Shown in pieces: positions 4,785-43,529 of a stretch of 44,321 bases of DNA. Origin of the DNA: Hyphomicrobiales bacterium (GTDB lineage Bacteria; Pseudomonadota; Alphaproteobacteria; Rhizobiales; BM303); the NCBI GenBank assembly GCA_002869085.1, contig PKTQ01000384.1, positions 1 to 44,321 of the forward strand, written 5' to 3'. Both the position numbers and the translations under genes were made by a program. Under the pieces are notes generated by a model, which was not told the origin of the DNA, did no database searches, and was given only the letters and a program-made list of their open reading frames with translations. Each line of letters starts with the position of its first letter. Position 1 is the stretch's first letter.

Positions 4785-4806
4785 GCAGTTGGAAGTGAGG
4801 ACCACC

Positions 4807-24552: not shown

Positions 24553-25447
24553 CGACGCCAACTGAACGGCGGGATGCGGCACTGAGAGCGATGCGGGATC
24601 ACGATATCTCGCAGCGCCGGGTGTGCAAGCTCGTTGGTGTCGATCCTAAAACGGTCCGGCGAGTCGCCCGCTGGACAATCCGGAAATCCGCGCGGAAATG
24701 AAGAAGGTTGCGCGCAAACGCCGCCGGTTCGGCTATCGGCGGATCGGCGTGATGCTACAACGCAAGGGGATGACCATGAACCATAAGAAGCTGTACCGGC
24801 TTTACAGCGAAGAAGGGTTATCGGTTAAGCGACGGCGGGGGCGCAAACGCGCCAGAGGTTCGCGAACGCCGATGCCGGCAGCCACACGGCCCGATCAGCG
24901 CTGGTCGCTGGACTTCCTGGCCGACACCTTCGGGGCCTCACGCCGCTTCCGCATCCTGGCTGTGAATGACGATTGTTGCCGGGAGAACCTTTGCCTGATG
25001 GCCGACACCAGCATATCCGGTGCACGCGTGGCGCGGGAGCTGGATGCGCTTGTCCGGCTCTATGGCAAACCGGCCTGCATTGTCTCCGACAACGGCACCG
25101 AGTTCACCAGCCGCGCGATCCTGCAATGGGCCAACGAGAACGATATCGAATGGCACTACATTGATCCGGGCAAGCCACAGCAGAACGCCTTCATCGAATC
25201 ATTCAACGGCAGTCTTCGGGATGAACTGCTGAACGAAGAAATCTTCGACAGTCTGGATGATGCCAGGCGCAAGTTGGCTCTGTGGCGATACGACTACAAT
25301 CATGTCAGGCCGCACTCATCACTCGCCAATATGACACCCGCTGAAGCGCGCCGGGCGCTTGAGCTGAGTGTGGGTTCCGCGCCCGACGCGCTTGCTCAAT
25401 CCGATGCCAAAGACTATGAAAACAAAACGCGCAGACTCTCGTTATGA
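24546..25447 (+). pseudogene. IS407-group transposase OrfB, frame-disrupted
   Basis: The -1 frame from GGGAAAG gives [41 protein letters not shown] and then stops (~24697). The DDE part ([24 protein letters not shown]...SDNGTEFTS...[11 protein letters not shown]) is in a third frame that opens only after a TAA at ~24645. This implies an extra indel near 24655-24675. Confidence 0.7.
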
Positions 25448-25781: not shown

Positions 25782-27020
25782 TCAAGTCTTTTGCCACGAC
25801 AAAATGTCAGAAAGTTGCTTACCAATCTCTTTATTTGCTGTTTGCAGAGTGCCAGATGCCAAATGAGCATATCTTTCAGTGGTGACTGATTTTTTATGCC
25901 CCATGAGCTTGCCAATCACTGGCAAGCTCATCCCTGAAGCTACAGCTATTGAAGCAAAACTATGCCGCAGATCGTGGATGCGCACATCTTCCAGGCCACA
26001 CAATTTACGAATTCGGTTCCACGGTTTTTGTAGATTGATCAGGTTTTTCCCCTCCTTGCCACCAACGATAACAAAAGGATTATTTTTCAATTTGGGTAAA
26101 TTCCTCAAAACCTCGACCGCAGGAGGAGAGAGAAAGATACTTTTTTTCCCTGTTTTTGAATCTGGTAAATTCAGGACTTCTTTTTCTAGATCCACATGTT
26201 CCCATTTTAAATTTAGAATCTCGCCAAGCCGTGCTCCGGTAAAAATGAGCAACCGGATAGCTGCAATTGCGTAGGGGTTTTCCTGGTCAGTATCTTTAAG
26301 TCGATTCAGGATTTCTCCCAATCTCTCAAATTCCTCAGTTGAGAGATATCGTTCACATTTATTTTCTTTAAAACGAGTGACTTGATGAGCGGGATTTGAT
26401 CCATCCGGACGCAGGTTCCACCGCTCAGCTAGATTGAACATCTTAGACACCAACGCCAGACAACGATTGGCTACACCTGGTCCACCAGTAACAACAGCCC
26501 CTCCTCGATACTCTCTTTTCCCATCAGGGTTTTTTGCAGCCGTTTTACCATTTCTGATATCGTTCTTAAATCGATCAATATCTTCACGTGTTACATCCTG
26601 AACTGGGATATTTCCAATCAGAGGAAGGACATGGTTCTGGATGTTTTTTCTATCTGTGTTGTAACTTGATGGCTTTTTATGAATCTCGGCGTAATCTTTC
26701 AAATACCGATCACATAAATCACTTATCAAAACCTGGTCGCGTTTAGCTTCACGAAGAGCCACCAAATCTTTTCCAGCATAGATATCAGCGAGCAACCTCT
26801 GAGCTTGTTTTCTGGCGTTAACTACTGTCCACGGACTTCCATGTTCTCCAATGGTGAACCATTTCTGCCTTCCTTTGATACGAGCTTTGAGAACATACTT
26901 TTTCGCATTGGTCTGTCTTCTAACACCAAATCCCTTCACCTCAGAATCCCAGACGATCTGGTTTGGTTGGAGTCTATCGACAATTGACTTAGTGATTTTT
27001 GTTGTTTTTCCTTTTGTCAT
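25782..27020 (-). CDS. int: tyrosine site-specific integrase, P4/CP4-57-like with N-terminal arm-binding (DUF4102-like) domain
   Basis: VWDSEVKGFGVRRQTNAKKYVLKARIKGRQKWFTIG (N-terminal domain). TGARLGEIL, HDLRHSFAS and TTERYAHL (R..HxxR..Y catalytic signature). 153 nt from the tRNA-derived direct repeat. Confidence 0.9.
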   Translation of the reverse strand: MTKGKTTKITKSIVDRLQPNQIVWDSEVKGFGVRRQTNAKKYVLKARIKGRQKWFTIGEHGSPWTVVNARKQAQRLLADIYAGKDLVALREAKRDQVLISDLCDRYLKDYAEIHKKPSSYNTDRKNIQNHVLPLIGNIPVQDVTREDIDRFKNDIRNGKTAAKNPDGKREYRGGAVVTGGPGVANRCLALVSKMFNLAERWNLRPDGSNPAHQVTRFKENKCERYLSTEEFERLGEILNRLKDTDQENPYAIAAIRLLIFTGARLGEILNLKWEHVDLEKEVLNLPDSKTGKKSIFLSPPAVEVLRNLPKLKNNPFVIVGGKEGKNLINLQKPWNRIRKLCGLEDVRIHDLRHSFASIAVASGMSLPVIGKLMGHKKSVTTERYAHLASGTLQTANKEIGKQLSDILSWQKT

Positions 27021-27173
27021 AATATCTCTTTCATAAATTTTATTTTTTTAGCAACCATATAGCTACCATATAGGAGACAAATATAGCGAATTCATGGCAA
27101 GCAGTGACTACATCACAACTGATATTTCAAAGGAATTACAACCAGCAACAAACTGTGTCGTAAATAACACTCA

Positions 27174-27220
27174 GACTGAAAATCCGCGTGTCGGTGGTTC
27201 GATTCCGCCCCTGGGCACCA
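27174..27220 (+). repeat. 47-nt exact direct repeat of the tRNA-Phe 3' part (= nt 53-99); att site bounding island A
   Basis: GACTGAAAATCCGCGTGTCGGTGGTTCGATTCCGCCCCTGGGCACCA is identical at 53-99 and 27174-27220. The tRNA 5' half is absent here. Confidence 0.9.
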
Positions 27221-28301: not shown

Positions 28302-28392
28302 GAGGGTAAAATCGGGGGTGACACTCCTATGACGCAGATATAAATATAGAATAATATCAATCCTTTAAGTGCTAAGCTAGATTCCGCCCCTG
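28302..28392 (+). repeat. left copy of a ~90-nt imperfect direct repeat ending in a tRNA-Phe 3' fragment (TAGATTCCGCCCCTG)
   Basis: Manual alignment with 36909-36998 shows shared blocks GGGTAAAA, GGGGT.ACAC, ATAAATA, ATATCAATC and TAGATTCCGCCCCTG. About 70 percent identity by my hand count. Confidence 0.55.
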
Positions 28393-28796
28393 CTTCGCCT
28401 AAATCTATAACCATATAATTCATTTGATGAAATACAGATATTTATTCTTGACAGGGGGCGGAATCGAACCGGAACGCATTTGAGACCTGTTCATCTTCTC
28501 CGGAACATCCCCTAACTGCTACAAAACCGCCATGTGCTGATCGCCAATGTCACAGATGGTGGAGTGATGGTCTGGTGTTGCGCCCGGTCGGACAGAGGGC
28601 CCTGACCTGGAATGGACACGCATCTCATAATGATTGCCGATGATTCCACTTCAGAGAAGATTATAGGTTTGATCCGTTACTTTAGGGCAGCTTATAATTC
28701 AAACTATTCCTATTCCAGAAATCGGTCGCTATAATGCCATTTTTTCAGAAATACCTCTGAAAATTGATTGCATTCATTCTCGGATTCTAAAACCTC

Positions 28797-30065
28797 ATGG
28801 CCAGACAGATTTATCGACAGGCTGCGCTTGACAGGTTGGCATCGCCCGAACAGCTGGACCGACCTCACACATTGGTCTCACCGCGCAACTGGCTGGCGCT
28901 GATTTTTCTGGCGGGAACAGTATTTCTACTTGCATACGGAGCCTTGGTTTCGTTCGCACCGGTCAAGGTGCCGGCCCGGGGCATGGTGCTGCAGACAGGC
29001 GGTCTGCTCGAGATCATCGCCAACAAGTCGGGCCGGATCGACAAGCTGACAATCAGCCCCGGTGATGAAGTCCGCCCAGGCATGGTGATCGCGGGGTTTA
29101 AACGCAGCACCATCATCAGGGAAATCAAGCTCGTCAAGGCGGAACTGTCGGACACAGAGGGCCGGCTGGCGTCGCTGGTCGAGTATTACAGCCTGCAGCG
29201 GAAAAACGAGACCGCCAATGAAACCGACCGGTTGGCGGGTTTACAGGAAACGGAACGGCTGCTCAAACGCCGGCGGAACCTGCTCGGAGAACGTCTCAAG
29301 GGGGTCAGGGAACTGGTGAAACGTAAGGTTGCCATTCCCACCAAGCTGATCAATGCTGAGCTTGAACTCACCGATGTTCATGAAAAACTGTCCAGGCTGA
29401 AAAACGAGGCCAATCATCTTCGGACCGATGCCCTCAAGCGCAAAAGGCGCCGGGATCTGGCCCTGCTTGATGAGAAATTGAAGATCGACAAGCTAAAACG
29501 ACAGATCACCCGCCTGGAAAAACAACTGGAGGATGACCAGACGGTCACCAGCCCCCATGCCGGCAGGGTGATTGAAATCAAGATGAAACAGGGCGATGTG
29601 ATTGACAAGGGCATGCCGCTGGCTCTGCTGGCGCCGCTGGCGGATGAAAAGAATCCGGATATCGCCGTGCTTTATGTGTCCACGGCCGACGGCAAAAGGG
29701 TCAAGCCGGGTATGGATGTCGAAATCGTGCCCAGCCTGTATCGCAAGTCGCAATATGGCTTCATCAGGGGCAAAGTCATTTATGTCTCCACGGTCCCCAC
29801 CACCTTGCAGGGCATGCGCAGTGTTCTTCGCAACGAACAGTTGGCCAAGGAGCTGGCCGGGGGGGGCAGTCCTTTCGAGGTCAGGGTGCGGTTTGAGCGA
29901 GATCCAGCCAGCCCCAGCGGGCTGCGCTGGTCATCATCGGATGGCCCTGCATCAGCCATTCACCCCGGCACGCTGCTCGAAGCTTCGATCGTGGTCGAAA
30001 GACTGCCGATAGCCGATATCGTCATCCCCGGCCTGGCGGGCAGATTGGGGCTGCCGGAGCGATGA
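28797..30065 (+). CDS. HlyD-family membrane fusion protein, NHLP/NHLM-bacteriocin-system type
   Basis: N-terminus IYRQAALDRLASPEQLDRPHTLVSPRNWLALIFLAG is typical of bacteriocin-export HlyD proteins. Long coiled coil, then a beta-barrel C-terminus. Overlaps the next gene by 4 nt. Confidence 0.9.
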   Translation: MARQIYRQAALDRLASPEQLDRPHTLVSPRNWLALIFLAGTVFLLAYGALVSFAPVKVPARGMVLQTGGLLEIIANKSGRIDKLTISPGDEVRPGMVIAGFKRSTIIREIKLVKAELSDTEGRLASLVEYYSLQRKNETANETDRLAGLQETERLLKRRRNLLGERLKGVRELVKRKVAIPTKLINAELELTDVHEKLSRLKNEANHLRTDALKRKRRRDLALLDEKLKIDKLKRQITRLEKQLEDDQTVTSPHAGRVIEIKMKQGDVIDKGMPLALLAPLADEKNPDIAVLYVSTADGKRVKPGMDVEIVPSLYRKSQYGFIRGKVIYVSTVPTTLQGMRSVLRNEQLAKELAGGGSPFEVRVRFERDPASPSGLRWSSSDGPASAIHPGTLLEASIVVERLPIADIVIPGLAGRLGLPER

Positions 30066-32227
30066 GCACGATGGTGGCAGCCGGCCGCTTCCAGCACCGG
30101 ATTCGGCGAACGCCGACGGTTTTGCAGCTTGAGGCCGCCGAATGCGGCGCAGCGGCTCTGGCCATGGTGCTGGCTGCTCACGGGCGCTATATCGCGCTTG
30201 AGAATCTGCGCATAGAGTGCGGGATTTCCAGAGACGGCTCGAAAGCCTCGAGCATCGTCAAGGCGGCCCGAAGCCATGGCCTTGAGGCCAAGGGCATGAA
30301 AGCCGAACCCGAACACCTGAAGGACCTGCCCCTGCCGGCCATTGCCTTTGTTGATTTTTGCCATTTTCTGGTGGTTGAAGGTTATGGGCCAAGGCATGTC
30401 TTCCTCAATGATCCGGCAGGCGGGCGGCGCAAAGTGACCCACGAGGCGTTCGACGCCATGTTCACGGGTGTGATCTTGACATTCACGCCAACGGAGCGGT
30501 TCGAAAAATCGGACCAGCGGCCGAACCTGAAAGCTGCCCTTTTCGCCCGAACGAAAGGTTTGCGGCTGGGCATTGCCTTTGTGTTTCTCACCAGTCTGGC
30601 ACTCGTCATCCCGGGAATTGTCATCCCGATTTTTTCAAGGGTGTTTGTCGACCAGATTCTGGTCCGGGGCTATGGCGACTGGCTGCTCCCTTTGCTGGCC
30701 GGCATGCTGATCACGTCGCTGCTGCGGCTGGGCCTGTCGGAGATGCAAAGAGCCCAATTGATCCAGGCCAGAACCAGATTGGCGGTCAGGGAAACCAAGG
30801 CCCTGTTCCAGCATATCCTGAAACTGCCCATTGCCTATTTCGGCACGCGATATGCGGGTGAAGTGGCCGGCCGGCTGGGCCTGAGCGGCAATCTGGCCTC
30901 GCTGCTGACGGGAGACATTGCGTCCATGGCGCTCAGCCTGATCACGGCGACTTTCTTTCTGGTGCTGATGTTCGCCTATAGCGCCACGATCACCATGGTC
31001 ATCCTCGGCTTCACCCTGCTGAACATATTGGTGGTGATCCTGACCACGCGCATCGCCTCGGAAGGGTATCGCAAGCTCTCGATTGAAGGCGGCAAGCTGA
31101 GCGGCATTGGCATGGCTGGTCTGAAGGATATCGAAACCTACAAGGCCGCCGGGGCTGAAGATGCGTTCTTCGCCCGCTGGGCCGGATTGAATGCCCAGAT
31201 CGTGACTCTCAGGCAGGCTCTGAGGAACAGATTGCTACCGGTCGCGACCATTCCAAGTCTGCTGCAGACCTGGACCGCCGCGACGATTCTGATCCTCGGC
31301 GGTTATGAGGTGATGAACGGCCAAATGACTATCGGCACGCTGGTGGCATTTCAATCTCTGGGTGCCAGTTTCATCGGCCCGGTGATCACGCTGACGGGCC
31401 TGGTGTCCACATTTCAGGAGGTGCGGTCCCTGACAGAGCGTATGGAGGATGTGCTGCGCCATCCCGTCGATCCGGTTTTCGAGACGGACACCGGCACTGT
31501 TGATCGGCTCCCGGTCGGCGAGTTGAGATTGAATCAGGTCTCTTTCGGCTATCTGCCCCTGGAGATGCCGCTGATCGACAAGCTAGACATCAACGTCAAG
31601 GCCGGCGGCCGGATTGCCCTGATCGGAGCATCGGGATCCGGAAAATCGACTGTCGGGCGCCTGATGGCCGGTCTGCTGCCACCGGGTGCAGGGCAGGTAC
31701 TGATCGACGGGCGACCGGCGACTGAGTGGCCACGGCCGGCACTAGCAAGTCGTCTGTCCTATGTCGATCAGGAGATTGTGCTGTTCGAAGGCAGCATCCG
31801 TGACAATCTGACCATGTGGGACACCACCATATCCGAGGCGCAGATGATGGCGGCGGCGAAAGACGCACTGATCCACGATGTGATCTGTTCGCGGCCCGGT
31901 ACCTATGACAGCCAGGTGATTGAGGGCGGTGCCAATTTCTCCGGCGGGCAGCGACAGAGGCTTGAGATTGCCCGGGCACTGGCCACCAACCCCTGCGCAT
32001 TGGTGATGGATGAGGCCACCAGCGCGCTTGATACCATCGCCGAAGCGGAAATCATGGAGAATATCCGGGCCCGCGGCACCACCCTTATCATTATTGCGCA
32101 TCGATTGAGCACCATTCGGGATTGCGACGAGATCATTGTCCTGGACCGGGGGAAGCCGGTCGACCGGGGCACCCATGACGAGTTGCTGGCCAAGGACGGG
32201 CTGTATACAAGCCTGATCGAGGATTGA
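30062..32227 (+). CDS. bacteriocin-export ABC transporter with N-terminal C39 peptidase domain (peptidase/permease/ATPase)
   Basis: C39 motif TVLQLEAAECGAAALAMVLAAHG. Six-helix TMD. GASGSGKST (Walker A), FSGGQRQRLEIARAL (signature), LVMDEATSALD (Walker B). Confidence 0.9.
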   Translation: MSTMVAAGRFQHRIRRTPTVLQLEAAECGAAALAMVLAAHGRYIALENLRIECGISRDGSKASSIVKAARSHGLEAKGMKAEPEHLKDLPLPAIAFVDFCHFLVVEGYGPRHVFLNDPAGGRRKVTHEAFDAMFTGVILTFTPTERFEKSDQRPNLKAALFARTKGLRLGIAFVFLTSLALVIPGIVIPIFSRVFVDQILVRGYGDWLLPLLAGMLITSLLRLGLSEMQRAQLIQARTRLAVRETKALFQHILKLPIAYFGTRYAGEVAGRLGLSGNLASLLTGDIASMALSLITATFFLVLMFAYSATITMVILGFTLLNILVVILTTRIASEGYRKLSIEGGKLSGIGMAGLKDIETYKAAGAEDAFFARWAGLNAQIVTLRQALRNRLLPVATIPSLLQTWTAATILILGGYEVMNGQMTIGTLVAFQSLGASFIGPVITLTGLVSTFQEVRSLTERMEDVLRHPVDPVFETDTGTVDRLPVGELRLNQVSFGYLPLEMPLIDKLDINVKAGGRIALIGASGSGKSTVGRLMAGLLPPGAGQVLIDGRPATEWPRPALASRLSYVDQEIVLFEGSIRDNLTMWDTTISEAQMMAAAKDALIHDVICSRPGTYDSQVIEGGANFSGGQRQRLEIARALATNPCALVMDEATSALDTIAEAEIMENIRARGTTLIIIAHRLSTIRDCDEIIVLDRGKPVDRGTHDELLAKDGLYTSLIED

Positions 32228-32233: not shown

Positions 32234-34537
32234 ATGCCGGAGCGTTCGCATCATCAACAGCCCGGTCCGGAAAAAGAATCCGTGGATTCGCCGGGGGCGC
32301 CCGAGCACACCACTGCGCAATCGGAAGAGCTGGCGCGAATCCATCGTTCAAATGCGGATGCGGGGCTGGCGTTCAAACACAGCATCGGCCGGTTGGACAA
32401 TGTGGTGCGCACATCGGGTCAGACCGGTTCCGGTTTTGCCATGAACCCGGCCGCCAGTGCGGTTCTGCAGGTGCTGGAGCAGTATGGATTCGATCCGGCG
32501 GAACGGGATATCGACCTCTATCATTTGCGGCTGGTGAAAGATGTGGGCGAATGCACGCGGCAGCTTGGAGCCCGCCTGCGGCCGATCCTGCTCCCGACCC
32601 GGTGGTGGAAGCAGGACCACGGCCATCTGGTCGGATTTGTGAAAGGCAATGGATCACGGAAACCGGCAGACGGCACCGGTGAAGACGATCAATCGGCCAT
32701 CGCGCTGATCCGTGGGGTGTCGGGTGGGTATATGATACCGGTCCCCGGAAGCGAAAAGGCCATTCCGGTCACCCAGGCCGTGGCCGAAGACATTGAGCCC
32801 GGCGCCCTGGAGATATTGCCTCCGCTGCCTGTCAAGGTGTCGGGGCTCGGCGACATGGCCCGCTTCGTCCTGCCGATGATCCGCAAGGATCTGATATGGA
32901 TCGCCGGCATTGGCGCGTTGCTGGGCTTTATCGGCGCCTTGTTCCCTCTGGCGACGGGGATCATTATCGATACGCTCATTCCCGGTCTGGAGCGCTCTCT
33001 GCTGGCCCAGCTGGGGGTGGCGCTGGCGGTTGTCGCCCTGCTCAATTATTTCCTGACCCTGGCAAAACAGCGCCATATGCTGCGGGCAAACGGGCGTTCC
33101 GGGCTGATTCTGCAATCGGCAATCTGGGATCGCATATTGAAGCTGCCGGCGGGCTTTTTCAGATCCTATTCCTCGGGAGATCTGCGTTCGCGCATGGACG
33201 GCATATCAGCACTGCGCAGCACGGTGATCGACATCGTTCTGTCCACCACCATCACCGCAGTGTTTTCCGTCTTCTACCTCATTCTGCTGCTACAATATGA
33301 CACCAGGCTGGCCCTGGTGGCCATTGCCTATGTCCTCGTTCTGGTGGCGGGCAGCTTCGCCATCGCTCTTTATATGAAGTCCTATTACCGGCGCCAGGCC
33401 GAACTGTCCGGCTGGCTGTCCGGCTATGTGTTCCAGGTGCTGCAGGCGATCATCAAGCTGCGCACGGCGGCCGCCGAAGCGCGGGCCCTGGTCCTGTGGG
33501 CCGACAAATTCGCCGATGCCAATGCCGCTGCCCTCACGACCTTGCGCATATCAGGCCGGTTCGAGGTGATGACGCAGCTCTATGTCTCTGTCGGCATGAT
33601 CAGCCTGTTCGCGGCTGCGTATTATCTGTCCGGCCCGTCACTATCCGCTGGCAGCTTCATTGCCTTTCTGGCGGCATTTGGCGGGTTTCAGTCGGCGTTT
33701 CAGGGCCTCAGCGGCGCCGCCCTCAGCTTCATCGCGGTGCTACCTGAATGGGAACGGGCCAAACCTGTCCTGGACGCAAAGCCTGAAACGAGCAGCAGCC
33801 AAAAAGATCCAGGAGAGCTCACCGGCGCCATTGACATGACAGGGGTCAATTTTGCCTATGAACAGGGCTCACCGGTTCTGAAAGATATCAGCCTGTCAGT
33901 CAGCCCGGGTGAGCATGTCGCTCTGGTCGGGCCGTCCGGTTCCGGCAAGTCGACCATTGTGCGCCTACTGCTCGCCCTGGACACCCCGCAAAGCGGTACG
34001 GTGACCTATAACAATCAGGACCTGCGCAGCCTGGATCTGACCCTGGTGCGCCGGCAGATCGGCGTGGTGACGCAAAACGGAAAACTGTCGGCCGGAACCA
34101 TACTGGACAATGTGCGTGGCGCCACAGCGATCAGCTATGAGGATTGTCTTGGGGCCTGCGTTGCCGCGGGTCTTGAGGAAGACCTGAAGACCTTTCCCAT
34201 GGGCATTCACACACCCTTGACCGAAGGGGCCACCACCCTGTCAGGCGGCCAGCGCCAGCGCCTGCTGATTGCCAGGGCCTTGGTCAACAAACCCAAAATC
34301 CTGCTTTTCGACGAGGCGACCAGTGCCCTGGACAACCGGACTCAGGCCATTGTCACGCAAAGCCTGGAACGACTGCAGGTGACGCGGATTGTCATCGCAC
34401 ACCGGCTGTCGACCATTGCCAATGCGGACCGGATCTACGTGCTGGATGCGGGTAAAATTGTCGAGGAGGGTTCCTATGATGACCTGCAGAACAATGATGG
34501 GCTGTTTTCCAGCCTGGCACGACGACAGAAGCTATGA
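32234..34537 (+). CDS. second bacteriocin-export ABC transporter (permease/ATPase) with degenerate non-catalytic N-terminal domain
   Basis: GPSGSGKST, LSGGQRQRLLIARAL, LLFDEATSALD. The N-terminal ~170 aa lack the C39 Cys motif. Confidence 0.9.
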   Translation: MPERSHHQQPGPEKESVDSPGAPEHTTAQSEELARIHRSNADAGLAFKHSIGRLDNVVRTSGQTGSGFAMNPAASAVLQVLEQYGFDPAERDIDLYHLRLVKDVGECTRQLGARLRPILLPTRWWKQDHGHLVGFVKGNGSRKPADGTGEDDQSAIALIRGVSGGYMIPVPGSEKAIPVTQAVAEDIEPGALEILPPLPVKVSGLGDMARFVLPMIRKDLIWIAGIGALLGFIGALFPLATGIIIDTLIPGLERSLLAQLGVALAVVALLNYFLTLAKQRHMLRANGRSGLILQSAIWDRILKLPAGFFRSYSSGDLRSRMDGISALRSTVIDIVLSTTITAVFSVFYLILLLQYDTRLALVAIAYVLVLVAGSFAIALYMKSYYRRQAELSGWLSGYVFQVLQAIIKLRTAAAEARALVLWADKFADANAAALTTLRISGRFEVMTQLYVSVGMISLFAAAYYLSGPSLSAGSFIAFLAAFGGFQSAFQGLSGAALSFIAVLPEWERAKPVLDAKPETSSSQKDPGELTGAIDMTGVNFAYEQGSPVLKDISLSVSPGEHVALVGPSGSGKSTIVRLLLALDTPQSGTVTYNNQDLRSLDLTLVRRQIGVVTQNGKLSAGTILDNVRGATAISYEDCLGACVAAGLEEDLKTFPMGIHTPLTEGATTLSGGQRQRLLIARALVNKPKILLFDEATSALDNRTQAIVTQSLERLQVTRIVIAHRLSTIANADRIYVLDAGKIVEEGSYDDLQNNDGLFSSLARRQKL

Positions 34538-34560: not shown

Positions 34561-35118
34561 ATGAACGGCATGAGAAAAGCGCTCTACATTCTGGGAGATC
34601 TTAGCGAAGCGGACATCTCCTGGCTGGCCGGTGCGGGAGAGGCGGCCAGGCTGGAGGCCGGACGGACACTGATCCGGATCGGCGAAGCGGTACAGGGGCT
34701 GTGTATCATTCTTGAAGGCAAGCTTGCCGTGCTGGTCGAGGATGGCCGGCAGATCGCCACTTTGGGTGCCGGCGACATTGTCGGGGAAATGTCGCTGATC
34801 GAAAAACGTCCACCCGAAGTTTCCATCACGGTGGTGGAATCGGCCCGAATTCTTTTGATTCCCATGTCGCGCCTGCGTGAGAAGCTGGAAACCGATGTGG
34901 CCTTCGCGGCAAGGTTCTATCGGGCTCTGGCGGTGTTTCTGTCCGATCGATTGCGGGAGACCACCTCAAGAATTGCCGGTGATGCCAGCCTGGTTCAAAA
35001 ACAGAGCTGGGGCGCGGAGGTGGATCTGGAGCTGGATGAGGGGATTCTCGACAATCTGCATGTGGCCGGCGACCGGATGCGCCGCCTCCTGGCCCTGCTG
35101 GAACATTCCGGGAGATAA
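34561..35118 (+). CDS. cyclic-nucleotide-binding domain protein (no obvious HTH)
   Basis: LGAGDIVGEMSLIEKRPPEVSITVVESARILLI is the cNMP-binding phosphate-binding-cassette pattern. The start may be ATG 34570, which has better spacing from AGGAG. Confidence 0.8.
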   Translation: MNGMRKALYILGDLSEADISWLAGAGEAARLEAGRTLIRIGEAVQGLCIILEGKLAVLVEDGRQIATLGAGDIVGEMSLIEKRPPEVSITVVESARILLIPMSRLREKLETDVAFAARFYRALAVFLSDRLRETTSRIAGDASLVQKQSWGAEVDLELDEGILDNLHVAGDRMRRLLALLEHSGR

Positions 35119-35284
35119 CCATTGTCCCACGCCGAGCGGCCGCACGCTGTCATCGGTGTGTGTGATCGACCATTTTGTAATTTATAGTTATTCCTAGTAA
35201 GGTTTACGCAATGGCATTCAGATAAAAGTTTGAATTCAGGGAGGATTCTGGACAGTAACAACCACGCAAAACAAGATGAGACCG

Positions 35285-35311
35285 GCATGACATGCCCTGT
35301 GACAGTGTCCG
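35285..35311 (+). promoter_or_regulatory. copy 1 of a ~27-nt direct repeat upstream of precursor gene 1 (contains palindrome GGCATGACATGCC and TGTGA)
   Basis: GCATGACATGCCCTGTGACAGTGTCCG, compared with GCATGACATGAGGCCATGACAGCGTCCG at 35414-35441. Confidence 0.35.
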
Positions 35312-35413
35312 GTGCAGCATGCGAGCGTGCCGGATCTGGTAAAATGAATACAAAATGAACGCGCTCAGAAGATGTCATTCAGATTGATCGAGCTAGTGTT
35401 CGTCCATCGCGGC

Positions 35414-35441
35414 GCATGACATGAGGCCATGACAGCGTCCG
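35414..35441 (+). promoter_or_regulatory. copy 2 of the direct repeat upstream of precursor gene 1
   Basis: Shares GCATGACATG and TGACAG(T/C)GTCCG with copy 1. Lies ~55 nt upstream of ATG 35496. Confidence 0.35.
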
Positions 35442-35495
35442 AAGATCAACAACCAACGCGCCGTGCAACAGCAAAGGCTTTTCAAGGAGAGGCAT

Positions 35496-35846
35496 ATGAC
35501 CAATAAAGACAGCAAACCGGAAAACGATGAGATTCCTGCAGCCATTGCCCTTGATGACGATGAGCTCGATCAGGTCCAGGGCGCTGGAGGCCTGGCAGGC
35601 CTAGCCGGGGCCATCGCCAATGATCCGGGAGGTTTTGCCGGCAATCTCGCGGGTGCGGTGACCAAAGGGGCCGGTAAATTCGCCGAGAATACAGGTGAAC
35701 ATGCGGCCAAGGGATTGCAGGAAAGCGGTCAGGAGAAAGCCGGAGAACTCGCCGACAAAGCGGGAGGTCTCGCTCAGAAAGCCTGGGAAAACACCCCGGC
35801 CGGCTGGCTGCTGAGCGGCGGCGAGGAAGATGGCGAACAAGACTAG
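35496..35846 (+). CDS. double-glycine-leader secreted peptide precursor 1 (116 aa; Gly/Ala-rich acidic core)
   Basis: RBS AAGGAGAGG. Leader MTNKDSKPENDEIPAAIALDDDELDQVQGA/GG, then GLAGLAGAIANDPGGFAGNLAGAV... Confidence 0.75.
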   Translation: MTNKDSKPENDEIPAAIALDDDELDQVQGAGGLAGLAGAIANDPGGFAGNLAGAVTKGAGKFAENTGEHAAKGLQESGQEKAGELADKAGGLAQKAWENTPAGWLLSGGEEDGEQD

Positions 35847-35916
35847 CACCGAGCTCATGGCGCAACAGCCCCAAGCCCAGGCATAGACGTTTTGCTTCAT
35901 CAAAAGGAGAGAATTC

Positions 35917-36219
35917 ATGACCAATAAGAACGAAAAACCGGCGGATCATCAGGCGGCCGCACAGGCCCTCAATGACGAAGAGCTCGATCAGGTGCAGGGC
36001 GGGGCCCCGCTGGCGTACCCGGATGTGGGTACCTCGTCATCGGGCGGCGGCAAGAAGGTCAAGACCAGCAGTGTGAAGGATAGCTCTTCCTCCGGCGATG
36101 AAGGTGGGTCGAAGGGCCTTGTGAGCAACAAAACTGAATCGACATCCCATGCCTCCTTTAGCAACGATGTCAAAGTTGAAGGTGATGGATTCCTGGATAT
36201 GACCCAAAATGGCGACTAG
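35917..36219 (+). CDS. double-glycine-leader secreted peptide precursor 2 (100 aa; Ser/Gly-rich core)
   Basis: RBS AAGGAGAG. Leader MTNKNEKPADHQAAAQALNDEELDQVQGG, then APLAYPDVGTSSSGGGKKVKTSS... Confidence 0.75.
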   Translation: MTNKNEKPADHQAAAQALNDEELDQVQGGAPLAYPDVGTSSSGGGKKVKTSSVKDSSSSGDEGGSKGLVSNKTESTSHASFSNDVKVEGDGFLDMTQNGD

Positions 36220-36414
36220 ATCTGCCCCTCCTCTAGTGAGGCCACTTGAAGCTGGATTGATCTGAAGCGGCCTCATGTTCAAGTGAACGCTGATAAGCCG
36301 CTCAACCCGGACATGTGTCTGGACCGGACATGAATGTGATCGGATTCCGGCCATGTTCAGCCCGCAGAAGCAAGGAGGGCAGCCCCTGAAACAGAATATA
36401 AGGGGTGGTGTAGG

Positions 36415-36549
36415 ATGAGCGGAACAGACAAAGACAGGCAGGACAACCTCCCACCCAGGGTCACTGAGCTGAAGGAGGATGAGCTGGATCAGATCCATGG
36501 CGGCGGCTATGCGCTGAGCAAGGCCACCACGACCGGATCAACAGGCTGA
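36415..36549 (+). CDS. double-glycine-leader peptide precursor 3 (44 aa; 14-aa core), not in the supplied ORF track
   Basis: Hand translation gives MSGTDKDRQDNLPPRVTELKEDELDQIHGG-GYALSKATTTGSTG*. It shares the EDELDQ(V/I)xGG leader with precursors 1 and 2. A purine-rich AAGGGGTGG lies upstream. Confidence 0.6.
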   Translation: MSGTDKDRQDNLPPRVTELKEDELDQIHGGGYALSKATTTGSTG

Positions 36550-36908
36550 ACGATGTTCTATCACGTGAGGCAAGTCTTCCCTCCTACGCGGCCAGTGCCT
36601 ATGGCACACCAATGAAGTTACGCTCAATATCCATACGGACGATATGATTCATGGGGTGCTGTTACGTGGGCCAGGAACCGAATAGGGTCAACAGCTGCCC
36701 ATCGGGCGCACATTGAAATTGTCTGTTTCCGGGGTCAAAGCGGAAAGTCCGTATCGCACAGATGAATCAGAAGTGGGCCATAACGGATGGCTTTTTCATT
36801 CAGGAAGGGGCTCCTCTGGCTGCCTATTGTTGTTCTATGCCCTATCATGATACAGCATATTCTTAAATGGTTGTATTCATTTATAAATACACGAGAAACT
36901 AGAAAATA

Positions 36909-37020
36909 GGGGGTAAAAATAGGGGTAACACCATATCACTCAATCATAAATAGTGTTCTATATCAATCAGTTACTTGGTTAGTTAGATTCCGCCCCTGGC
37001 ACCATATATTTCAATAAGTT
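36909..37020 (+). repeat. right copy of the ~90-nt direct repeat plus a degenerate tRNA-Phe 3' end and tRNA-downstream-like flank
   Basis: 36909-36998 aligns with 28302-28392. GATTCCGCCCCTGGCACCA (36986-37004) equals tRNA nt 80-99 minus one G. TATATTTCAATAAGTT (37005-37020) resembles ATACTTTCAATAAGTT at 100-115. Confidence 0.6.
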
Positions 37021-37099: not shown

Positions 37100-37942
37100 T
37101 TAAATGTGATGGAATGGTTTGCGCTCTTGCTCTGGCTGGTTCTGACGGCTGTATGCAGCATGTACAATGTTCGAGACAACCATGCCACCGATGATGTTTG
37201 ACAGGTCCACTCCAAGGCGTCCTTTCTCAAGATTGACGATCAGCACCTGCCCTTTATCCATAATCTGACGAAATCGAAGTAGCTTTTCAGGATTACAAAC
37301 AGGTTTTCGCACAACAGGATGAGCCAAGAATGCTCCAAGTTCGTTCGCAATCGGAGCCACAACATCTGCGGCATTTTAAAAGTTAATATTGGGATATTCG
37401 GCTGTCCAAAACTGCTGCATCTGAGGGTTGGTGACAGCTGACAGCACTTCGTTACGGAATGACTTGTTCAAGAACAAAGGAATGATGTCTTGCTGTGTTG
37501 ATGTTGGCCATTCCAAAAGCGCTAGCAGTGAGTAGCGTAATAGGTGCTACATACGCGCACCCCATGCATCTGAGCATTGCTTCTTGAGCGTATCAATTTG
37601 ACCCGATACTACAAGCGATCTATATGAGCTGCGCACATATGTCAGTGAGATATATCCATACGGCCAATCAGGATCAGCGATATTCCAATAGATTGCTTTG
37701 TAATCGCTATTTGATCTTACCGCTTCCGCTAAATCCCCAAGTGGATCAATCAGGTAAAACCCTTGGCCATGAGCCAAATCTTGACGCATCATATTGAGAA
37801 GTAGTGTTGATTTCCCCGTACCGGTGTAACCGACAATGTACTGATGAAGTAGTCGGTCTCGCGGTGAAATCCCAAACAGCTTGTGTGGGTAGTGGCCTAG
37901 AGCTGTTCCCAATATGGGGAGCTGATGGTTTTTTTGTTTCAC
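37100..37942 (-). pseudogene. TraD/VirD4-like ATPase paralog, frame-disrupted and 3'-truncated
   Basis: 37547..37942 gives YIVGYTGTGKSTLLLNMMRQDLAHGQGFYLIDPLGDLAEAV. 37100..37360 gives FRQIMDKGQVLIVNLEKGRLGVDLSNIIGGMVV..QPEQERKPFHHI. Both align with the 16464 gene. The middle is in another frame, and the Walker B and C-terminal half are missing. Confidence 0.75.
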
Positions 37943-42351: not shown

Positions 42352-42657
42352 ATGATGAGCAAATCCAATTACAGTGACGATTTCAAGCGGGACGCAGTGC
42401 GTCAGATCACCGAGCGGGGCTATCCGGCTGCGGAGGTTTCCAAGCGTCTGGGCGTGAGCCAACATTCACTCTATGCATGGAAGAAGAAGTTCTCGCAGCC
42501 ATCCGGTGGCGATGGCAAGGACGCCGAGATCCGGCGCCTGAAGCGAGAGCTGAACCGGGTGACCGAGGAGCGTGACATCCTAAAAAGGCCACTGCGTACT
42601 TCGCCAGGGATGCATCCCTCTCGACGGTGTAAACACCCTCTGCCGGTCAGTGAGTGA
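42352..42657 (+). CDS. IS3-family transposase OrfA
   Basis: MMSKSNYSDDFKRDAVRQITERGYPAAEVSKRLGVSQHSLYAWKKKF...RLKRELNRVTEERDILK. A slippery A-AAA-AGG lies at ~42585. Confidence 0.8.
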   Translation: MMSKSNYSDDFKRDAVRQITERGYPAAEVSKRLGVSQHSLYAWKKKFSQPSGGDGKDAEIRRLKRELNRVTEERDILKRPLRTSPGMHPSRRCKHPLPVSE

Positions 42658-43529
42658 GGTACGCGTTTGTCGCCAAGCATCACCCACTGTTTTCGGTACG
42701 GGCGATGTGCCGCTGTCTGCGCATCCACCCGCGCGTTTTCTATGCCTGGCTCAAAAACCCATCCTGCAAGCGAGCCCGGGATGACGCCCGCCAGACCGAA
42801 CTCATCCGCAAGGCGTGGAGGGAGAGCGGCAAGGTCTATGGCTATCGCAAACTACACGATGACCTTCTGGACCAAGGCGAGAGCTGCTGCCCGAACCGTG
42901 TTGCCAGACTGGCCCGGCTTGCCGGGATCAGGGCCCAGATCGGCTACAAGCGCCGTCCAGGCATCTATGGTGGCAAGCCGTCTGTGGTTGTTGACAATGC
43001 GCTGAACCGGCAATTTGATGTGGAAGCGCCAGACAGGGTCTGGGTGATAGACATCACCTACATAAGGACTCATGAGGGCTTCGCCTATCTGGCTGTTGTG
43101 ATCGACCTCTACTCCCGCCGTGTTGTTGGCTGGTCGATGCAGAGCCGTCAAACGACAGTTGTTGTGCTGCAGGCCTTGCTGATGGCTCTGTGGAGACGGA
43201 AACCGAAGAACAGGGTGCTTATCCATTCCGATCAGGGTTCCCAGTTCACCAGCATGGACTGGACGTCATTCCTCAAAGCCCACAATCTGGAACACTCGAT
43301 GAGCCGGCGAGGAAACTGTCATGATAATGCCTTGGTTGAAAGCTTCTTCAACCTGCTCAAGCGCGAGCGGATACGGCGTAGAACCTACAAGACCCGCGCG
43401 GAGGCCAGGCAGGATGTGTTCAGCTATATCGAGATATTCTACAATCCGAAGCGCAAGCATGTGAGGAACGGGATGCCGTCACCCGTCGAATTTGAACGGC
43501 AGCAGAAAATGAGAACCGAGGGTGTCTAG
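42654..43529 (+). CDS. IS3-family transposase OrfB (DDE/rve)
   Basis: WVIDITYIRT...HSDQGSQFTS...GNCHDNALVESFFNLLKRE. The -1 frame between the slippery site and GTG 42654 contains two stops (42630, 42651), so an OrfAB fusion may not be made. Confidence 0.8.
   Translation: MRYAFVAKHHPLFSVRAMCRCLRIHPRVFYAWLKNPSCKRARDDARQTELIRKAWRESGKVYGYRKLHDDLLDQGESCCPNRVARLARLAGIRAQIGYKRRPGIYGGKPSVVVDNALNRQFDVEAPDRVWVIDITYIRTHEGFAYLAVVIDLYSRRVVGWSMQSRQTTVVVLQALLMALWRRKPKNRVLIHSDQGSQFTSMDWTSFLKAHNLEHSMSRRGNCHDNALVESFFNLLKRERIRRRTYKTRAEARQDVFSYIEIFYNPKRKHVRNGMPSPVEFERQQKMRTEGV

What the first reader, a model, noticed from the sequence alone, without database searches (positions are those of the whole stretch)
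35496..36549. Three tandem double-glycine-leader precursors with very different cores, one a missed 44-aa gene
All three ORFs share a leader ending (D/E)(D/E)ELDQ(V/I)(Q/H)G(G/A) at residues 28-30. Each has a good RBS.

The cores differ markedly:
- an ~86-aa Gly/Ala-rich acidic core (GLAGLAGAIANDPGGFAGNLAGAV...);
- a ~71-aa Ser/Gly/Lys-rich core;
- a 14-aa core GYALSKATTTGSTG, from the gene at 36415-36549, which is below the ORF-track size cutoff.

The long Gly-rich cores resemble class II microcin-like toxins. The short one could be a pheromone-like signal. No immunity gene is evident.
Basis: partly seen in the sequence, partly recalled or inferred. Interest (0 to 1): 0.65.

Follow-up and report, generated by a model that had tools for sequence, protein, structure and literature searches.

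The report
Secreted peptide trio with spike-tip-like domain
Three small genes beside a peptide-cleaving export pump really do encode secretion-tagged precursors, and one of them unexpectedly carries a miniature version of a domain so far known only from the tip of the bacterial type VI secretion spike.

Summary
Three tandem ORFs (35496-35846, 35917-36219, 36415-36549) share a canonical double-glycine leader: L-12, E-8, L-7, V/I-4, G-2, G/A-1. The motif occurs 3 times in six frames and 0 times in 200 shuffles. The ORFs lie directly downstream of a complete NHLM/NHLP-type export module: HlyD TIGR03794, C39-ABC TIGR03796 with an intact Gln/Cys/His/Asp peptidase site, ABC2 TIGR03797 and a stand-alone cNMP-binding protein.

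The interpretation needs revision.
- Core 2 is not an arbitrary Ser/Gly/Lys-rich microcin. It belongs to a rare family (~17 clusters among 1.84 billion proteins) of GG-leader proteins whose core is a truncated PIPY/DUF4150 "PAAR-like" domain. That domain was otherwise described only in T6SS spike tips.
- In four of five informative contexts this family sits beside the same four-gene exporter, never beside T6SS genes.
- Core 1 is an acidic, Gly/Ala-rich, predicted helical protein. Similar proteins recur beside the PIPY-like gene in other loci, but homology is unproven.
- Core 3 (14 aa) is an orphan.
- No immunity or modification gene lies in the 8.6-kb GC-rich block, which is bracketed by repeats.

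Export and cleavage are well supported. Extracellular function is inferred and unknown. No transcription data were available.

The parts
28328..28392 (+). Left copy of a 65-nt direct repeat ending in the tRNA-Phe 3' motif (GATTCCGCCCCTG). Marks the left edge of the 8.6-kb GC-rich cassette.
   Evidence: the repeat finder family D2/D6. Motif census: 5 copies against 0.04 expected. GC jumps from ~0.35-0.45 to ~0.60 at ~28,800.
28797..30065 (+). HlyD-type membrane-fusion (periplasmic adaptor) protein of the exporter, 422 aa.
   Evidence: NCBIfam TIGR03794 NHLM_micro_HlyD, 274 bits against a cutoff of 156. Pfam HlyD_D23/HlyD_3.
30062..32227 (+). ABC1: peptidase-containing ABC transporter (C39 domain + permease + ATPase), 721 aa. 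Predicted to cleave the leaders after GG/GA.
   Evidence: TIGR03796, 923.5 bits against a cutoff of 853. Pfam Peptidase_C39 E = 2e-35. Residues 16-147 match LahT147 (6MPZ) at E = 8e-41, with Gln22/Cys28/His101/Asp117 aligned to LahT Gln21/Cys27/His101/Asp117 (PMC6363468). Walker A, signature, Walker B-Glu and H-loop present.
32234..34537 (+). ABC2: second ABC permease/ATPase subunit without a peptidase domain, 767 aa.
   Evidence: TIGR03797, 738.5 bits against a cutoff of 709. Canonical ATPase motifs. The N-terminal 230 aa have no solved relative.
34561..35118 (+). Stand-alone cyclic-nucleotide-binding-domain protein, 185 aa. Conserved fourth gene of the module and a candidate ligand sensor for secretion.
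   Evidence: Pfam cNMP_binding E = 1.4e-16. Matches the C-terminal half of TIGR03896 'bacteriocin-type transport-associated protein' at 116.8 bits, below the 161 cutoff. A 179-188 aa homologue follows ABC2 in L051-L054 and L073.
35496..35846 (+). Precursor 1, 116 aa. Leader 35496-35585 (30 aa, ends ...DDELDQVQGA). Core 35586-35843 (86 aa): Gly/Ala-rich, acidic (pI 4.5, net charge -7), predicted helical, with an acidic tail.
   Evidence: Single-sequence AF2: helices 21-42, 44-77, 80-98; pLDDT 70-83 over residues 31-70. No homologue by word-indexed search. Marginal similarity to L073/L075/L053 partner proteins.
35917..36219 (+). Precursor 2, 100 aa. Leader 35917-36003 (29 aa, ends ...DEELDQVQGG). 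Core 36004-36216 (71 aa): a truncated PIPY/DUF4150 PAAR-like domain (PLAYPDVG ... KKVK ... SSGDEGG.KGLVS ... DVKVEG ... LDMTQN).
   Evidence: phmmer over 1.84e9 proteins: 17 proteins of 74-110 aa, best E = 6.8e-11. Leader-free family HMM: 57.8 bits against a maximum of 10.0 in 1000 shuffles. 15/18 members hit PF13665 and 8 pass its gathering score. Alignment with canonical T6SS DUF4150 proteins keeps all 12 invariant columns.
36415..36549 (+). Precursor 3, 44 aa. Leader 36415-36504 (30 aa, ends ...EDELDQIHGG). Core 36505-36546 (14 aa, GYALSKATTTGSTG), an orphan.
   Evidence: Called as a gene in two public assemblies. A diverged copy has only third-position changes. No core relative in any fetched locus.
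36775..36793 (+). Terminator-like hairpin followed by TTTTCATT, at the point where GC content falls. Likely end of the precursor transcript.
   Evidence: scan_promoters_terminators. Fine GC profile. Consensus match only; not evidence of function.
36934..36998 (+). Right copy of the 65-nt direct repeat (72% identical to 28328-28392), ending in the tRNA-Phe 3' motif. Right edge of the cassette.

Best explanation
The three ORFs are the cargo genes of a compact, horizontally acquired secretion cassette of about 8.6 kb.

**Proposed mechanism**
1. Each gene is translated with a ~30-residue double-glycine leader.
2. The leader helix places Leu-12, Leu-7 and Val/Ile-4 into the hydrophobic groove of the C39 peptidase domain of ABC1, and is cut after GG/GA.
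3. The core is pumped out by ABC1 with ABC2, through the HlyD adaptor and an unlinked outer-membrane channel.
4. The cNMP-domain protein may gate this export.

**Nature of the cargo**
- The cores are released unmodified. The cassette has no modification gene and the cores have no Cys.
- Cargo 2 is a ~70-residue PIPY/DUF4150-like mini-domain. It is a T6SS spike-tip domain that has lost its first ~40 residues and gained an export leader.
- Cargo 1 is an acidic Gly/Ala-rich helical protein of a type that recurs beside the PIPY-like gene in other loci.
- Cargo 3 is a 14-residue orphan peptide.

**What is shown and what is inferred**
- Shown by sequence analysis: genes, leader, exporter identity, intact catalytic residues, family membership of core 2 and its recurrent linkage to this exporter.
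- Inferred: actual cleavage and export, ABC1/ABC2 pairing, ligand gating, and the extracellular role.

**Most likely role.** I consider extracellular interbacterial competition or interaction the most likely role, with cargos 1 and 2 possibly acting together. I put only about 35-40% on that specific role.
For: **Leader and peptidase**
- Motif found 3 times against 0 in shuffles.
- Leader residues fit the published Leu(-12)-X3-Glu(-8)-Leu(-7) and Val(-4) rule (PMC6363468).
- The C39 domain is ~60% identical to LahT147, with the catalytic residues aligned.

**Exporter**
- All three TIGR equivalogs score above cutoff. These are the export trio defined by Haft et al. 2010 (PMC2887384).
- Both ATPases have canonical motifs.

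**Module conservation.** HlyD-ABC1-ABC2-cNMP recurs in L051-L054 and L073, at 46-63% identity for L073. The cargo varies from locus to locus and always carries a GG leader, including Nif11/LanM precursors in L052.

**Core 2 family.**

**Linkage of the PIPY-like gene to the exporter**
- Adjacent in the window, in L073/L074 (directly upstream of HlyD), in L075/L076 (third gene after cNMP) and in L055 (upstream of a HlyD-like gene).
- A decayed copy follows the cNMP gene in L051.
- P0116 lies in the same genome as a module, but 1.3 Mb away.
- One member, P0129, has a Sec signal peptide in place of the GG leader, which also points to a role outside the cytoplasm.

**Coding statistics** favour the sense ORFs.

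**Cassette boundaries** are set by the GC shift and the bracketing repeats.

**Precedent for ligand control.** The cNMP domain of the HetC transporter binds ppGpp and is required for function (PMC10986499).
Against: - **No expression evidence.** No RNA run is available, and no peptide or protein data exist.
- **Weak direct Pfam score.** Precursor 2 itself scores only 19 bits on PF13665 against a cutoff of 31. Its PIPY motif reads PLAY.
- **No fold evidence.** AF2 with the 18-sequence alignment gives no confident fold (pLDDT 59, coil). A PAAR-like cone fold is therefore unverified. It may not be attainable without the missing N-terminal third of the domain.
- **Core 1 homology is marginal.** z = 2.0-4.7 against composition-matched shuffles, and hhalign finds nothing.
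- **Antagonistic role is weakly grounded.** There is no immunity gene, and the cores are hydrophilic and acidic, unlike classical membrane-active bacteriocins.
- **Missing part.** No outer-membrane channel gene lies in the window.
- **Thin sampling.** The family is rare and comes only from metagenomes, so the co-occurrence counts rest on five informative contexts.
Confidence: 0.7

Rival explanations
1. Classical unmodified class II microcin-type bacteriocins. The long Gly-rich cores would be membrane- or receptor-targeting toxins secreted by a CvaAB-like exporter, with self-immunity encoded elsewhere or provided by the pump.
For: - The architecture (GG leader + C39-ABC + HlyD adaptor) is that of colicin V/microcin export (own knowledge; PMC6363468).
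- Core 1 starts with two short Gly/Ala-rich hydrophobic stretches.
- The cassette sits in a mobile island, as competition loci often do.
Against: - No immunity-like small membrane-protein gene lies in the block or beside the cargo in related loci.
- The cores are hydrophilic and acidic, with no Cys.
- No Pfam or NCBIfam bacteriocin model matches beyond the leader.
- Core 2 is homologous to a T6SS structural domain, not to any microcin.
Confidence: 0.15
2. Signalling peptides. One or more of the cores, especially the 14-aa one, would be an exported pheromone or quorum signal, as with ComC/BlpC in Gram-positives or the unknown HetC substrate in cyanobacteria.
For: - The short unmodified core resembles a pheromone in size.
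- Weak ComC/BlpC hits.
- A ligand-sensing cNMP protein is attached to the exporter. HetC offers a precedent for a regulatory PCAT (PMC10986499).
Against: - The ComC/BlpC hits cover the leader only (residues 16-36).
- No histidine kinase or response regulator lies in the cassette.
- The 14-aa core has no relative in any related locus, so there is no sign of a conserved signal-receptor pair.
Confidence: 0.1
3. RiPP precursors whose Ser/Thr-rich cores are modified by enzymes encoded elsewhere in the genome before export.
For: - The same exporter type serves LanM-modified Nif11 precursors in L052.
- Haft et al. note that precursors can lie far from their modification genes (PMC2887384).
- Cores 2 and 3 are rich in Ser/Thr.
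Against: - No modification enzyme lies in the self-contained 8.6-kb block.
- No core contains Cys, which excludes lanthionine or thiazole chemistry.
- Core 2 is conserved like a folded domain rather than a hypervariable RiPP core.
Confidence: 0.08
4. Spurious ORFs. The real coding sequences would be the long antisense ORFs (35482-35949 and 36037-36498), or the region would be non-coding.
For: GC-rich DNA produces long antisense ORFs of 153-155 aa overlapping the three genes.
Against: - The motif recurs three times in frame.
- Each gene has a ribosome-binding site.
- Codon statistics favour the sense frames.
- Core 2 has homologues across leader and core.
- The variant copy changes only third codon positions.
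Confidence: 0.02

Closest known systems
NHLM/NHLP 'bacteriocin' export system (TIGR03794 HlyD + TIGR03796 C39-ABC + TIGR03797 ABC; Haft, Basu & Mitchell 2010, PMC2887384)
   Same: - All three transporter genes score above the curated equivalog cutoffs, in the same order.
- The substrates carry the same motif leading up to Gly-Gly.
- Cargo is multi-copy, with a conserved leader and divergent cores.
   Different: - The leaders here are short (29-30 aa) and classical. They are not the 70-83-aa nitrile-hydratase-like or Nif11-like leaders that define the NHLP and N11P precursor families.
- There is no modification enzyme.
- The cargo cores are 71-86-aa hydrophilic proteins, one of them a PIPY-like domain, rather than short Cys/Ser/Thr-rich RiPP cores.
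- A stand-alone cNMP-binding protein is a constant fourth gene.
PIPY (DUF4150, Pfam PF13665 Tox-PAAR-like) domains of T6SS spike tips (PMC11883445)
   Same: - Core 2 and its family align with canonical DUF4150 proteins of Paracoccus and Rhizobium over ~70 residues, with 12 invariant columns, including the namesake P-x-P-Y motif.
- 8 relatives pass Pfam's gathering score.
   Different: - Canonical PIPY domains are ~120 aa. They form the N-termini of 330-350-aa effectors or stand-alone cytoplasmic spike tips, and co-occur with VgrG and DUF2169 (PMC11883445).
- In this family the first ~40 residues are replaced by a cleavable export leader and two loops are shorter.
- No VgrG, DUF2169 or other T6SS gene is nearby in any context.
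- The neighbour is a PCAT/type-I-like exporter.
Class II microcins / colicin V with CvaAB-TolC export
   Same: - Double-glycine leader.
- C39-ABC plus HlyD-family adaptor.
- Unmodified cargo of 60-90 aa, Gly-rich in part.
   Different: - No immunity gene.
- Two ABC subunits instead of one.
- Hydrophilic, acidic, Cys-free cores.
- No sequence similarity to any microcin family in Pfam or NCBIfam.
HetC of Nostoc PCC 7120, a PCAT with a cNMP-type domain (PMC10986499)
   Same: A peptidase-containing ABC exporter functionally coupled to a cNMP-type ligand-binding domain.
   Different: - In HetC the domain is fused to the N-terminus of the transporter, and its substrate is unknown.
- Here the domain is a separate 185-aa protein, and candidate substrates are encoded next to it.

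Membership tests
Double-glycine (GG) leader substrates of C39 peptidase ABC transporters | [quoted passage not shown] | tested here: met
   All three have L-12, E-8, L-7, V/I-4, G-2, G/A-1. The rule is from PMC6363468.
Double-glycine (GG) leader substrates of C39 peptidase ABC transporters | Score above the cutoff of the curated leader model TIGR01847 (bacteriocin_sig, 15.7 bits) | tested here: not met
   Precursor 2 scores 13.9 bits. Precursors 1 and 3 are not listed. The model has only 15 positions and was built on Gram-positive bacteriocins.
Double-glycine (GG) leader substrates of C39 peptidase ABC transporters | A cognate transporter with a catalytically competent C39 domain encoded nearby | tested here: met
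   ABC1 ends 3.3 kb upstream in the same orientation. Gln22/Cys28/His101/Asp117 align with the LahT catalytic residues.
Double-glycine (GG) leader substrates of C39 peptidase ABC transporters | Demonstrated cleavage after GG and export of the core | not testable with these tools
   Needs in vitro cleavage or LC-MS/MS of supernatant. No RNA or proteome data are available.
NHLM/NHLP export system (Haft 2010) | Co-located TIGR03794, TIGR03796 and TIGR03797 genes, each above the equivalog cutoff | tested here: met
   274.2/156.2, 923.5/853.3 and 738.5/709.4 bits.
NHLP (TIGR03793) or Nif11-type (TIGR03798) precursor families | Long (~70-83 aa) nitrile-hydratase-like or Nif11-like leader domain before the GG site | tested here: not met
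   The leaders are 29-30 aa, with no hit to TIGR03793/03798 or Pfam Nif11. The precursors use the NHLM exporter but do not belong to these precursor families.
PIPY / DUF4150 (Pfam PF13665 Tox-PAAR-like) | Score at or above Pfam's gathering threshold (31 bits) | tested here: not met
   Precursor 2 scores 19.0 bits, E = 0.0015. Eight close family members do pass, at 31.7-48.1 bits. Precursor 2 scores 57.8 bits on a leader-free HMM of those members. Membership is therefore transitive, not direct.
PIPY / DUF4150 (Pfam PF13665 Tox-PAAR-like) | Conserved PIPY motif forming the hydrophobic core | tested here: inconclusive
   Family members have PVPY/PIPY/PLPY directly after the cleavage site. Precursor 2 has PLAY, with the second Pro replaced by Ala, as in P0118 and P0128.
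PIPY / DUF4150 (Pfam PF13665 Tox-PAAR-like) | Genetic linkage to VgrG and a DUF2169 chaperone in a T6SS context | tested here: not met
   No T6SS family was found among the window's ORFs of 150 aa or more, or in L055, L073-L076 and L056. The canonical relatives do show this linkage.
PIPY / DUF4150 (Pfam PF13665 Tox-PAAR-like) | Cone-shaped PAAR-like beta fold over the complete ~108-120-residue domain | tested here: inconclusive
   The AF2 model has pLDDT 59 and pTM 0.15, essentially coil. The alignment covers only profile positions ~17-103, and the canonical N-terminal ~40 residues are absent.
Class II microcins | Dedicated immunity gene adjacent to the structural gene | tested here: not met
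   No candidate small membrane protein lies within 28.4-37.0 kb.
Class II microcins | Sequence similarity of the core to a known microcin or bacteriocin family | tested here: not met
   Pfam and NCBIfam give only leader-region hits below cutoff.
TIGR03896 bacteriocin-type transport-associated cNMP protein | Score at or above the 161-bit cutoff over the 317-position, two-domain model | tested here: not met
   116.8 bits, matching only profile positions 138-314. The window protein corresponds to the C-terminal half of the model. The L073 homologue scores 148.7 bits.

The most novel reading that the evidence does not exclude
A PAAR-like (PIPY/DUF4150) spike-tip domain has been cut down, fitted with a double-glycine leader (or, in one member, a Sec signal) and turned into free extracellular cargo of a type-I-like PCAT exporter. 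There it would act together with a co-secreted acidic helical partner. Two possible modes are a new kind of two-component antibacterial agent, or a binder of blunt beta-helical spikes (T6SS, tailocin or phage) outside the cell. Either would give the PAAR-like fold a function wholly outside contractile injection systems.
Probability: 0.2. Interest if true: 0.8.

Novelty: new variant of a known kind. Interest (0 to 1): 0.62.

Why it matters
**For T6SS and PAAR research.** PIPY/DUF4150 domains are currently described as strictly tied to VgrG and DUF2169 in T6SS clusters (PMC11883445). Here a family of the same domain is linked instead to a peptide-processing ABC exporter. That would show the module is used by a second, unrelated secretion route, and it raises the question of what a spike-tip fragment does outside the cell.

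**For bacteriocin and RiPP research.** Haft et al. (2010) predicted that the NHLM exporter would lead to further cargo families. This would be one: unmodified, protein-sized and hydrophilic, with a recurrent partner protein and a ligand-binding accessory protein.

**For experiments.** The 8.6-kb cassette is self-contained apart from the outer-membrane channel, so it is directly testable by heterologous expression.

**Prior description.** I found no paper linking PAAR-like/DUF4150 with double-glycine leaders, leader peptides or PCATs. NCBIfam has no model for the family.

Tried and rejected
**Homologue searches**
- Word-indexed searches with precursors 1 and 2 returned only the query itself.
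- The search for related loci with ABC2 in reference genomes gave only generic ATPase-domain matches at 26-35% identity, which were not useful.
- An exact 61-nt scan of reference genomes for the locus found nothing.
- The integrase's best relative is 46% identical (Maritalea), so the host remains unidentified.
- Family scans of 185,579 reference genomes found no confirmed relative. The leader pattern gave 370 stretches and the core pattern 21, none confirmed. An earlier attempt failed because the alignment had no conserved stretch.
- The metagenome scan re-found only L055.
- Precursors 1 and 2 have no match in plasmids.

**Structure**
- AF2 on precursor 2 with the family alignment gave pLDDT 59 and coil, so no fold search was run on it.
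- AF2 on precursor 1 alone gave helices, but Foldseek against the PDB found 0 matches.
- A PDB profile search with the family gave only a spurious thiaminase hit at E = 0.9.

**Rejected or unproven leads**
- The long hits P0109, P0110, P0121, P0122 and P0124 in the exhaustive search score through many weak stretches. P0109, P0110 and P0121, which I inspected, are repeat proteins, so I rejected all five.
- Homology of core 1 to the L073/L075/L053 partner proteins: pairwise E = 2e-5 only with the leader included. With the leader removed, z = 2.0-4.7 and hhalign probability is 0.6%. I treat this as unproven.
- The idea that the 44-aa gene is a truncated remnant: no continuation in any frame, and the gene lies 250 nt inside the GC-rich block.

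**Data not available**
- No RNA runs.
- L003 turned out to be the same strain, 100% identical, not an independent homologue.
- PADLOC has no model for the three precursors.
Full report
**1.

The three ORFs are at the stated coordinates:
- 35496-35846 (116 aa)
- 35917-36219 (100 aa)
- 36415-36549 (44 aa)

Their leaders end at GA30, GG29 and GG30, which leaves cores of 86, 71 and 14 aa.

| Test | Result |
|---|---|
| Strict motif [DE][DE]ELDQ[VI][QH]G[GA] in six frames of the window | 3 occurrences |
| Same motif in 200 locally shuffled windows | 0 occurrences |
| Leader DNA repeat, 37 nt | 89% and 76% identity |
| Codon log-odds of the three ORFs (trained on the four transporter genes) | +0.18 to +0.26 per codon |
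| Codon log-odds of the transporter genes | +0.28 to +0.35 |
| Codon log-odds of the long antisense ORFs | -0.32, -0.17, +0.10 |

- Genes 1 and 2 have AAGGAG 6-7 nt before the ATG. Gene 3 has a weaker site.
It is called in the public assembly that carries this locus, ENA ERZ794997.
- A slightly diverged copy in a bioreactor metagenome from another study differs at two third-codon positions. One change is synonymous and the other is Asp22->Glu, which stays within the D/E pattern of the leader (codon reading mine).
- No RNA data could be found, so transcription is untested.

**2. Surroundings**

The genes immediately upstream, on the same strand, form a complete export module:

| Gene | Coordinates | Evidence |
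|---|---|---|
| HlyD-type adaptor | 28797-30065 | TIGR03794, above cutoff |
| ABC1, with N-terminal C39 peptidase | 30062-32227 | TIGR03796, above cutoff |
| ABC2, without peptidase | 32234-34537 | TIGR03797, above cutoff |
| cNMP-binding-domain protein, 185 aa | 34561-35118 | Matches the C-terminal half of TIGR03896 'bacteriocin-type transport-associated protein', below cutoff |

- This is the export trio that Haft, Basu and Mitchell defined by phylogenetic profiling with NHLP precursors. They predicted it would lead to further cargo families (PMC2887384).
- The peptidase domain matches the crystallised LahT147 protease at E = 8e-41. Gln22, Cys28, His101 and Asp117 align with LahT's Gln21, Cys27, His101 and Asp117 (PMC6363468).
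- That paper gives the recognition rule Leu(-12)-X3-Glu(-8)-Leu(-7), with Val(-4) in a hydrophobic groove. All three window leaders have L-12, E-8, L-7, V/I-4, G-2 and G/A-1.
- Both ABC subunits have canonical Walker A, signature, Walker B-Glu and H-loop motifs.

The module and the three precursors form a sharply bounded GC-rich block:
- GC is ~0.60 in the block against 0.34-0.47 in the flanks, running from ~28,800 to ~36,800.
- The block is bracketed by a 65-nt direct repeat (28328-28392 and 36934-36998). Both copies end in the 3' motif of tRNA-Phe.
- It lies next to a 27-kb tRNA-Phe island with its own integrase.
- It contains no modification enzyme, immunity-like gene, regulator with a DNA-binding domain, or outer-membrane channel.

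**3. Core 2 is a PIPY/DUF4150-like domain**

Pfam gave precursor 2 a weak, sub-threshold Tox-PAAR-like hit (19 bits, cutoff 31). Word-indexed searching found nothing. An exhaustive phmmer run over 1.84 billion representatives found 17 proteins of 74-110 aa that align across both leader and core, best E = 6.8e-11. The few long hits in that list score through many weak stretches. The three I inspected are repeat proteins, and I discarded all of them.

The family has a GG/GA leader followed at once by a conserved core: P(V/I/L)PYPD(I/V)G ... KKVK ... SSSGDEAGT.KGVVS ... DVKVEG.

Evidence that this core is a PIPY/DUF4150 domain:
- 15 of 18 members hit PF13665 on their own.
- Eight pass Pfam's gathering score (31.7-48.1 bits). 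The match begins at profile position 17-18, directly after the cleavage site.
- An HMM built from the 16 other cores, without leaders, scores precursor 2's core at 57.8 bits. The maximum in 1000 composition-matched shuffles is 10.0 bits.
- tblastn with a family member finds annotated DUF4150 proteins in Paracoccus, Rhizobium, Photobacterium and Burkholderia at 37-42% identity.
- Two of these lie in textbook T6SS clusters: DUF2169, thiolase-like, DUF4150-effector, with VgrG, Hcp and TssBC nearby.
- In a joint alignment 12 columns are invariant, including in the window protein. The GG leader occupies the place of the first ~40 residues of the canonical domain.

DUF4150 domains were recently renamed PIPY domains after this motif. 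They are reported to co-occur with VgrG and DUF2169 (PMC11883445).

Caveats:
- Precursor 2 has PLAY where most members have P-x-P-Y.
- AF2 with the shallow family alignment gave no confident fold (pLDDT 59). The fold is therefore inferred from sequence only.

**4. The family travels with this exporter, not with T6SS**

| Locus | What lies beside the PIPY-like gene |
|---|---|
| L073/L074 | Directly upstream of HlyD-C39ABC-ABC2-cNMP (46/63/54/56% identical to the window's proteins); two more GG-leader genes downstream |
| L075/L076 | Third gene after the cNMP gene: cNMP, GG peptide, 104-aa acidic Gly/Ala-rich GG precursor, PIPY-like precursor. The same kind of trio as in the window |
| L055 | Two tandem PIPY-like genes upstream of a HlyD-like gene |
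| L051 | A leaderless, apparently decayed PIPY-like ORF right after the cNMP gene |
| L056 | P0116 lies 1.3 Mb from a module in the same 2.5-Mb genome |

- No T6SS gene appears in any of these contexts.
- One member (P0129) carries a Sec-type signal peptide in place of the GG leader, which again points to a role outside the cytoplasm.
- Other homologous modules carry other GG-leader cargo: Nif11 precursors with LanM plus five small hydrophilic GG peptides in L052, and seven GG peptides in L053.
- The module is therefore a general GG-leader exporter with exchangeable cargo.

**5. Cores 1 and 3**

Core 1:
- It is acidic (pI 4.5, net charge -7), 23% Gly and 20% Ala, Cys-free and hydrophilic overall.
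- It is predicted, with moderate confidence from a single sequence, to be all-helical. No solved structure has a similar fold.
- Proteins matching it in position, size, charge and composition, with an acidic Gly-rich tail, recur in L073, L075/L076 and L053.
- Those three are clearly related to each other (z up to 11.7). Core 1's similarity to them is marginal: z = 2.0-4.7, and hhalign finds nothing.
- I call it a positional and compositional analogue and a possible distant relative.

Core 3 (GYALSKATTTGSTG):
- It has no relative anywhere I could look.
- Its ComC/BlpC hits cover only the leader.

**6. Mechanism**

- Well supported by sequence: ribosomal synthesis with a canonical leader, recognition and cleavage by the ABC1 C39 domain, and export through an ABC/HlyD system of a diderm bacterium.
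- Inferred: ABC1/ABC2 heterodimerisation, use of an unlinked TolC-like channel, and control by the cNMP-domain protein.
- For that control, HetC offers a precedent. Its fused cNMP domain binds ppGpp and is essential (PMC10986499).
- The extracellular function is unknown.
- I favour a role in interbacterial interaction, with cargos 1 and 2 acting together, because they co-occur and the cassette is mobile.
- The lack of an immunity gene and the hydrophilic, acidic nature of the cores argue against classical membrane-active microcins.

**7. Comparison and novelty**

- The exporter is a member of a known system, and all defining models are met.
- The precursors are GG-leader substrates by every sequence criterion, except the very short Gram-positive-based TIGR01847 model.
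- They are not NHLP or Nif11 precursors, because their leaders are short.
- Core 2 is related to PIPY/DUF4150 but fails three of that family's defining features: its own Pfam score, T6SS linkage and a complete domain. It should be called PIPY-like, not a PIPY spike tip.
- I found no paper linking PAAR-like/DUF4150 with double-glycine leaders, leader peptides or PCATs. NCBIfam has no model for the family.
- The family is rare. It is absent, by my motif scans, from 185,579 reference genomes and from PLSDB plasmids.
- I rate it a new variant of a known kind: ordinary in how it is exported, unexpected in what is exported.

Noticed in passing
window 24-99, 27173-27220, 25782-27020: tRNA-Phe (24-99) is followed by a ~27-kb island. 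The island ends in a 47/48-nt exact repeat of the tRNA 3' end (27173-27220), next to a P4-type tyrosine integrase (25782-27020, minus strand). This is a classical tRNA-Phe integrated element.
   Followed up: partly
window 28376-28393, 28452-28469 (minus), 36982-36999: Three further, partly degenerate copies of the tRNA-Phe 3' motif (5 in all, 0.04 expected). Two of them close the 65-nt direct repeat that brackets the exporter and precursor block, and one is inverted. This suggests tandem or nested integrations at the same att site. The 8.6-kb block has no integrase of its own.
   Followed up: partly
window 9680-12217 (minus) and 12263-14272 (minus): The 845-aa helicase is a full-length match (1104 bits) to the PADLOC candidate phage-defence system PDC-S28. 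Its neighbour is a GHKL/MORC-type ATPase (HATPase_c_3), a likely partner.
   Followed up: no
window 4750-7542: A 930-aa protein with an N-terminal Swt1-like HEPN domain, preceded by four ORFs without any Pfam family (1289-4784). Possibly another defence or toxin module in the island.
   Followed up: no
window 16464-17912; 37100-37942 (minus): A TraG/TraD-like coupling-protein gene lies in the island. Downstream of the precursor block, two adjacent minus-strand ORFs (one with a Walker A motif, GYTGTGKST) look like fragments of a disrupted P-loop NTPase gene. Pfam gave no hit at 1e-4.
   Followed up: no
window 20536-21516 (minus), 24698-25447, 42654-43529: Three transposase genes: one IS481-like and two IS3-like (rve/rve_3/HTH_21). 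The whole window is a mosaic of mobile DNA, with GC content from 0.32 to 0.61.
   Followed up: no
L073 8973-9308: One 111-aa ORF downstream of the homologous exporter contains two successive GG-leader motifs (PEDLDAISGG and LSDGDLDKVSGG). It may be a fusion of two precursors or a doubly processed cargo.
   Followed up: no
P0129 (family member, no locus fetched): A PIPY-like family member with a Sec-type signal peptide (MKSLNGLIMVAASILFFTVTSA|DPVPYPDIG...) in place of the double-glycine leader. The export signal has been swapped on the same core.
   Followed up: partly
L052 11152-18229: A homologous four-gene exporter (ABC2 58% identical) is followed by a LanM lanthipeptide synthetase, two Nif11-leader precursors, a luciferase-like oxidoreductase and five small hydrophilic GG-leader peptides. 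Modified and apparently unmodified cargo lie in one locus.
   Followed up: no
L053 3922-4218 (minus): The 98-aa acidic GG precursor next to the homologous exporter weakly hits NCBIfam NF038167 'CTB family bacteriocin' (19.5 bits, cutoff 32), extending past the leader. This is a possible lead for naming the core-1-like proteins.
   Followed up: no
window 35119-35495: A 377-nt gap with lower GC (0.45-0.55) separates the cNMP gene from precursor 1. No sigma-70-like promoter was found by the simple scan. It is a possible separate regulatory region for the cargo genes.
   Followed up: partly
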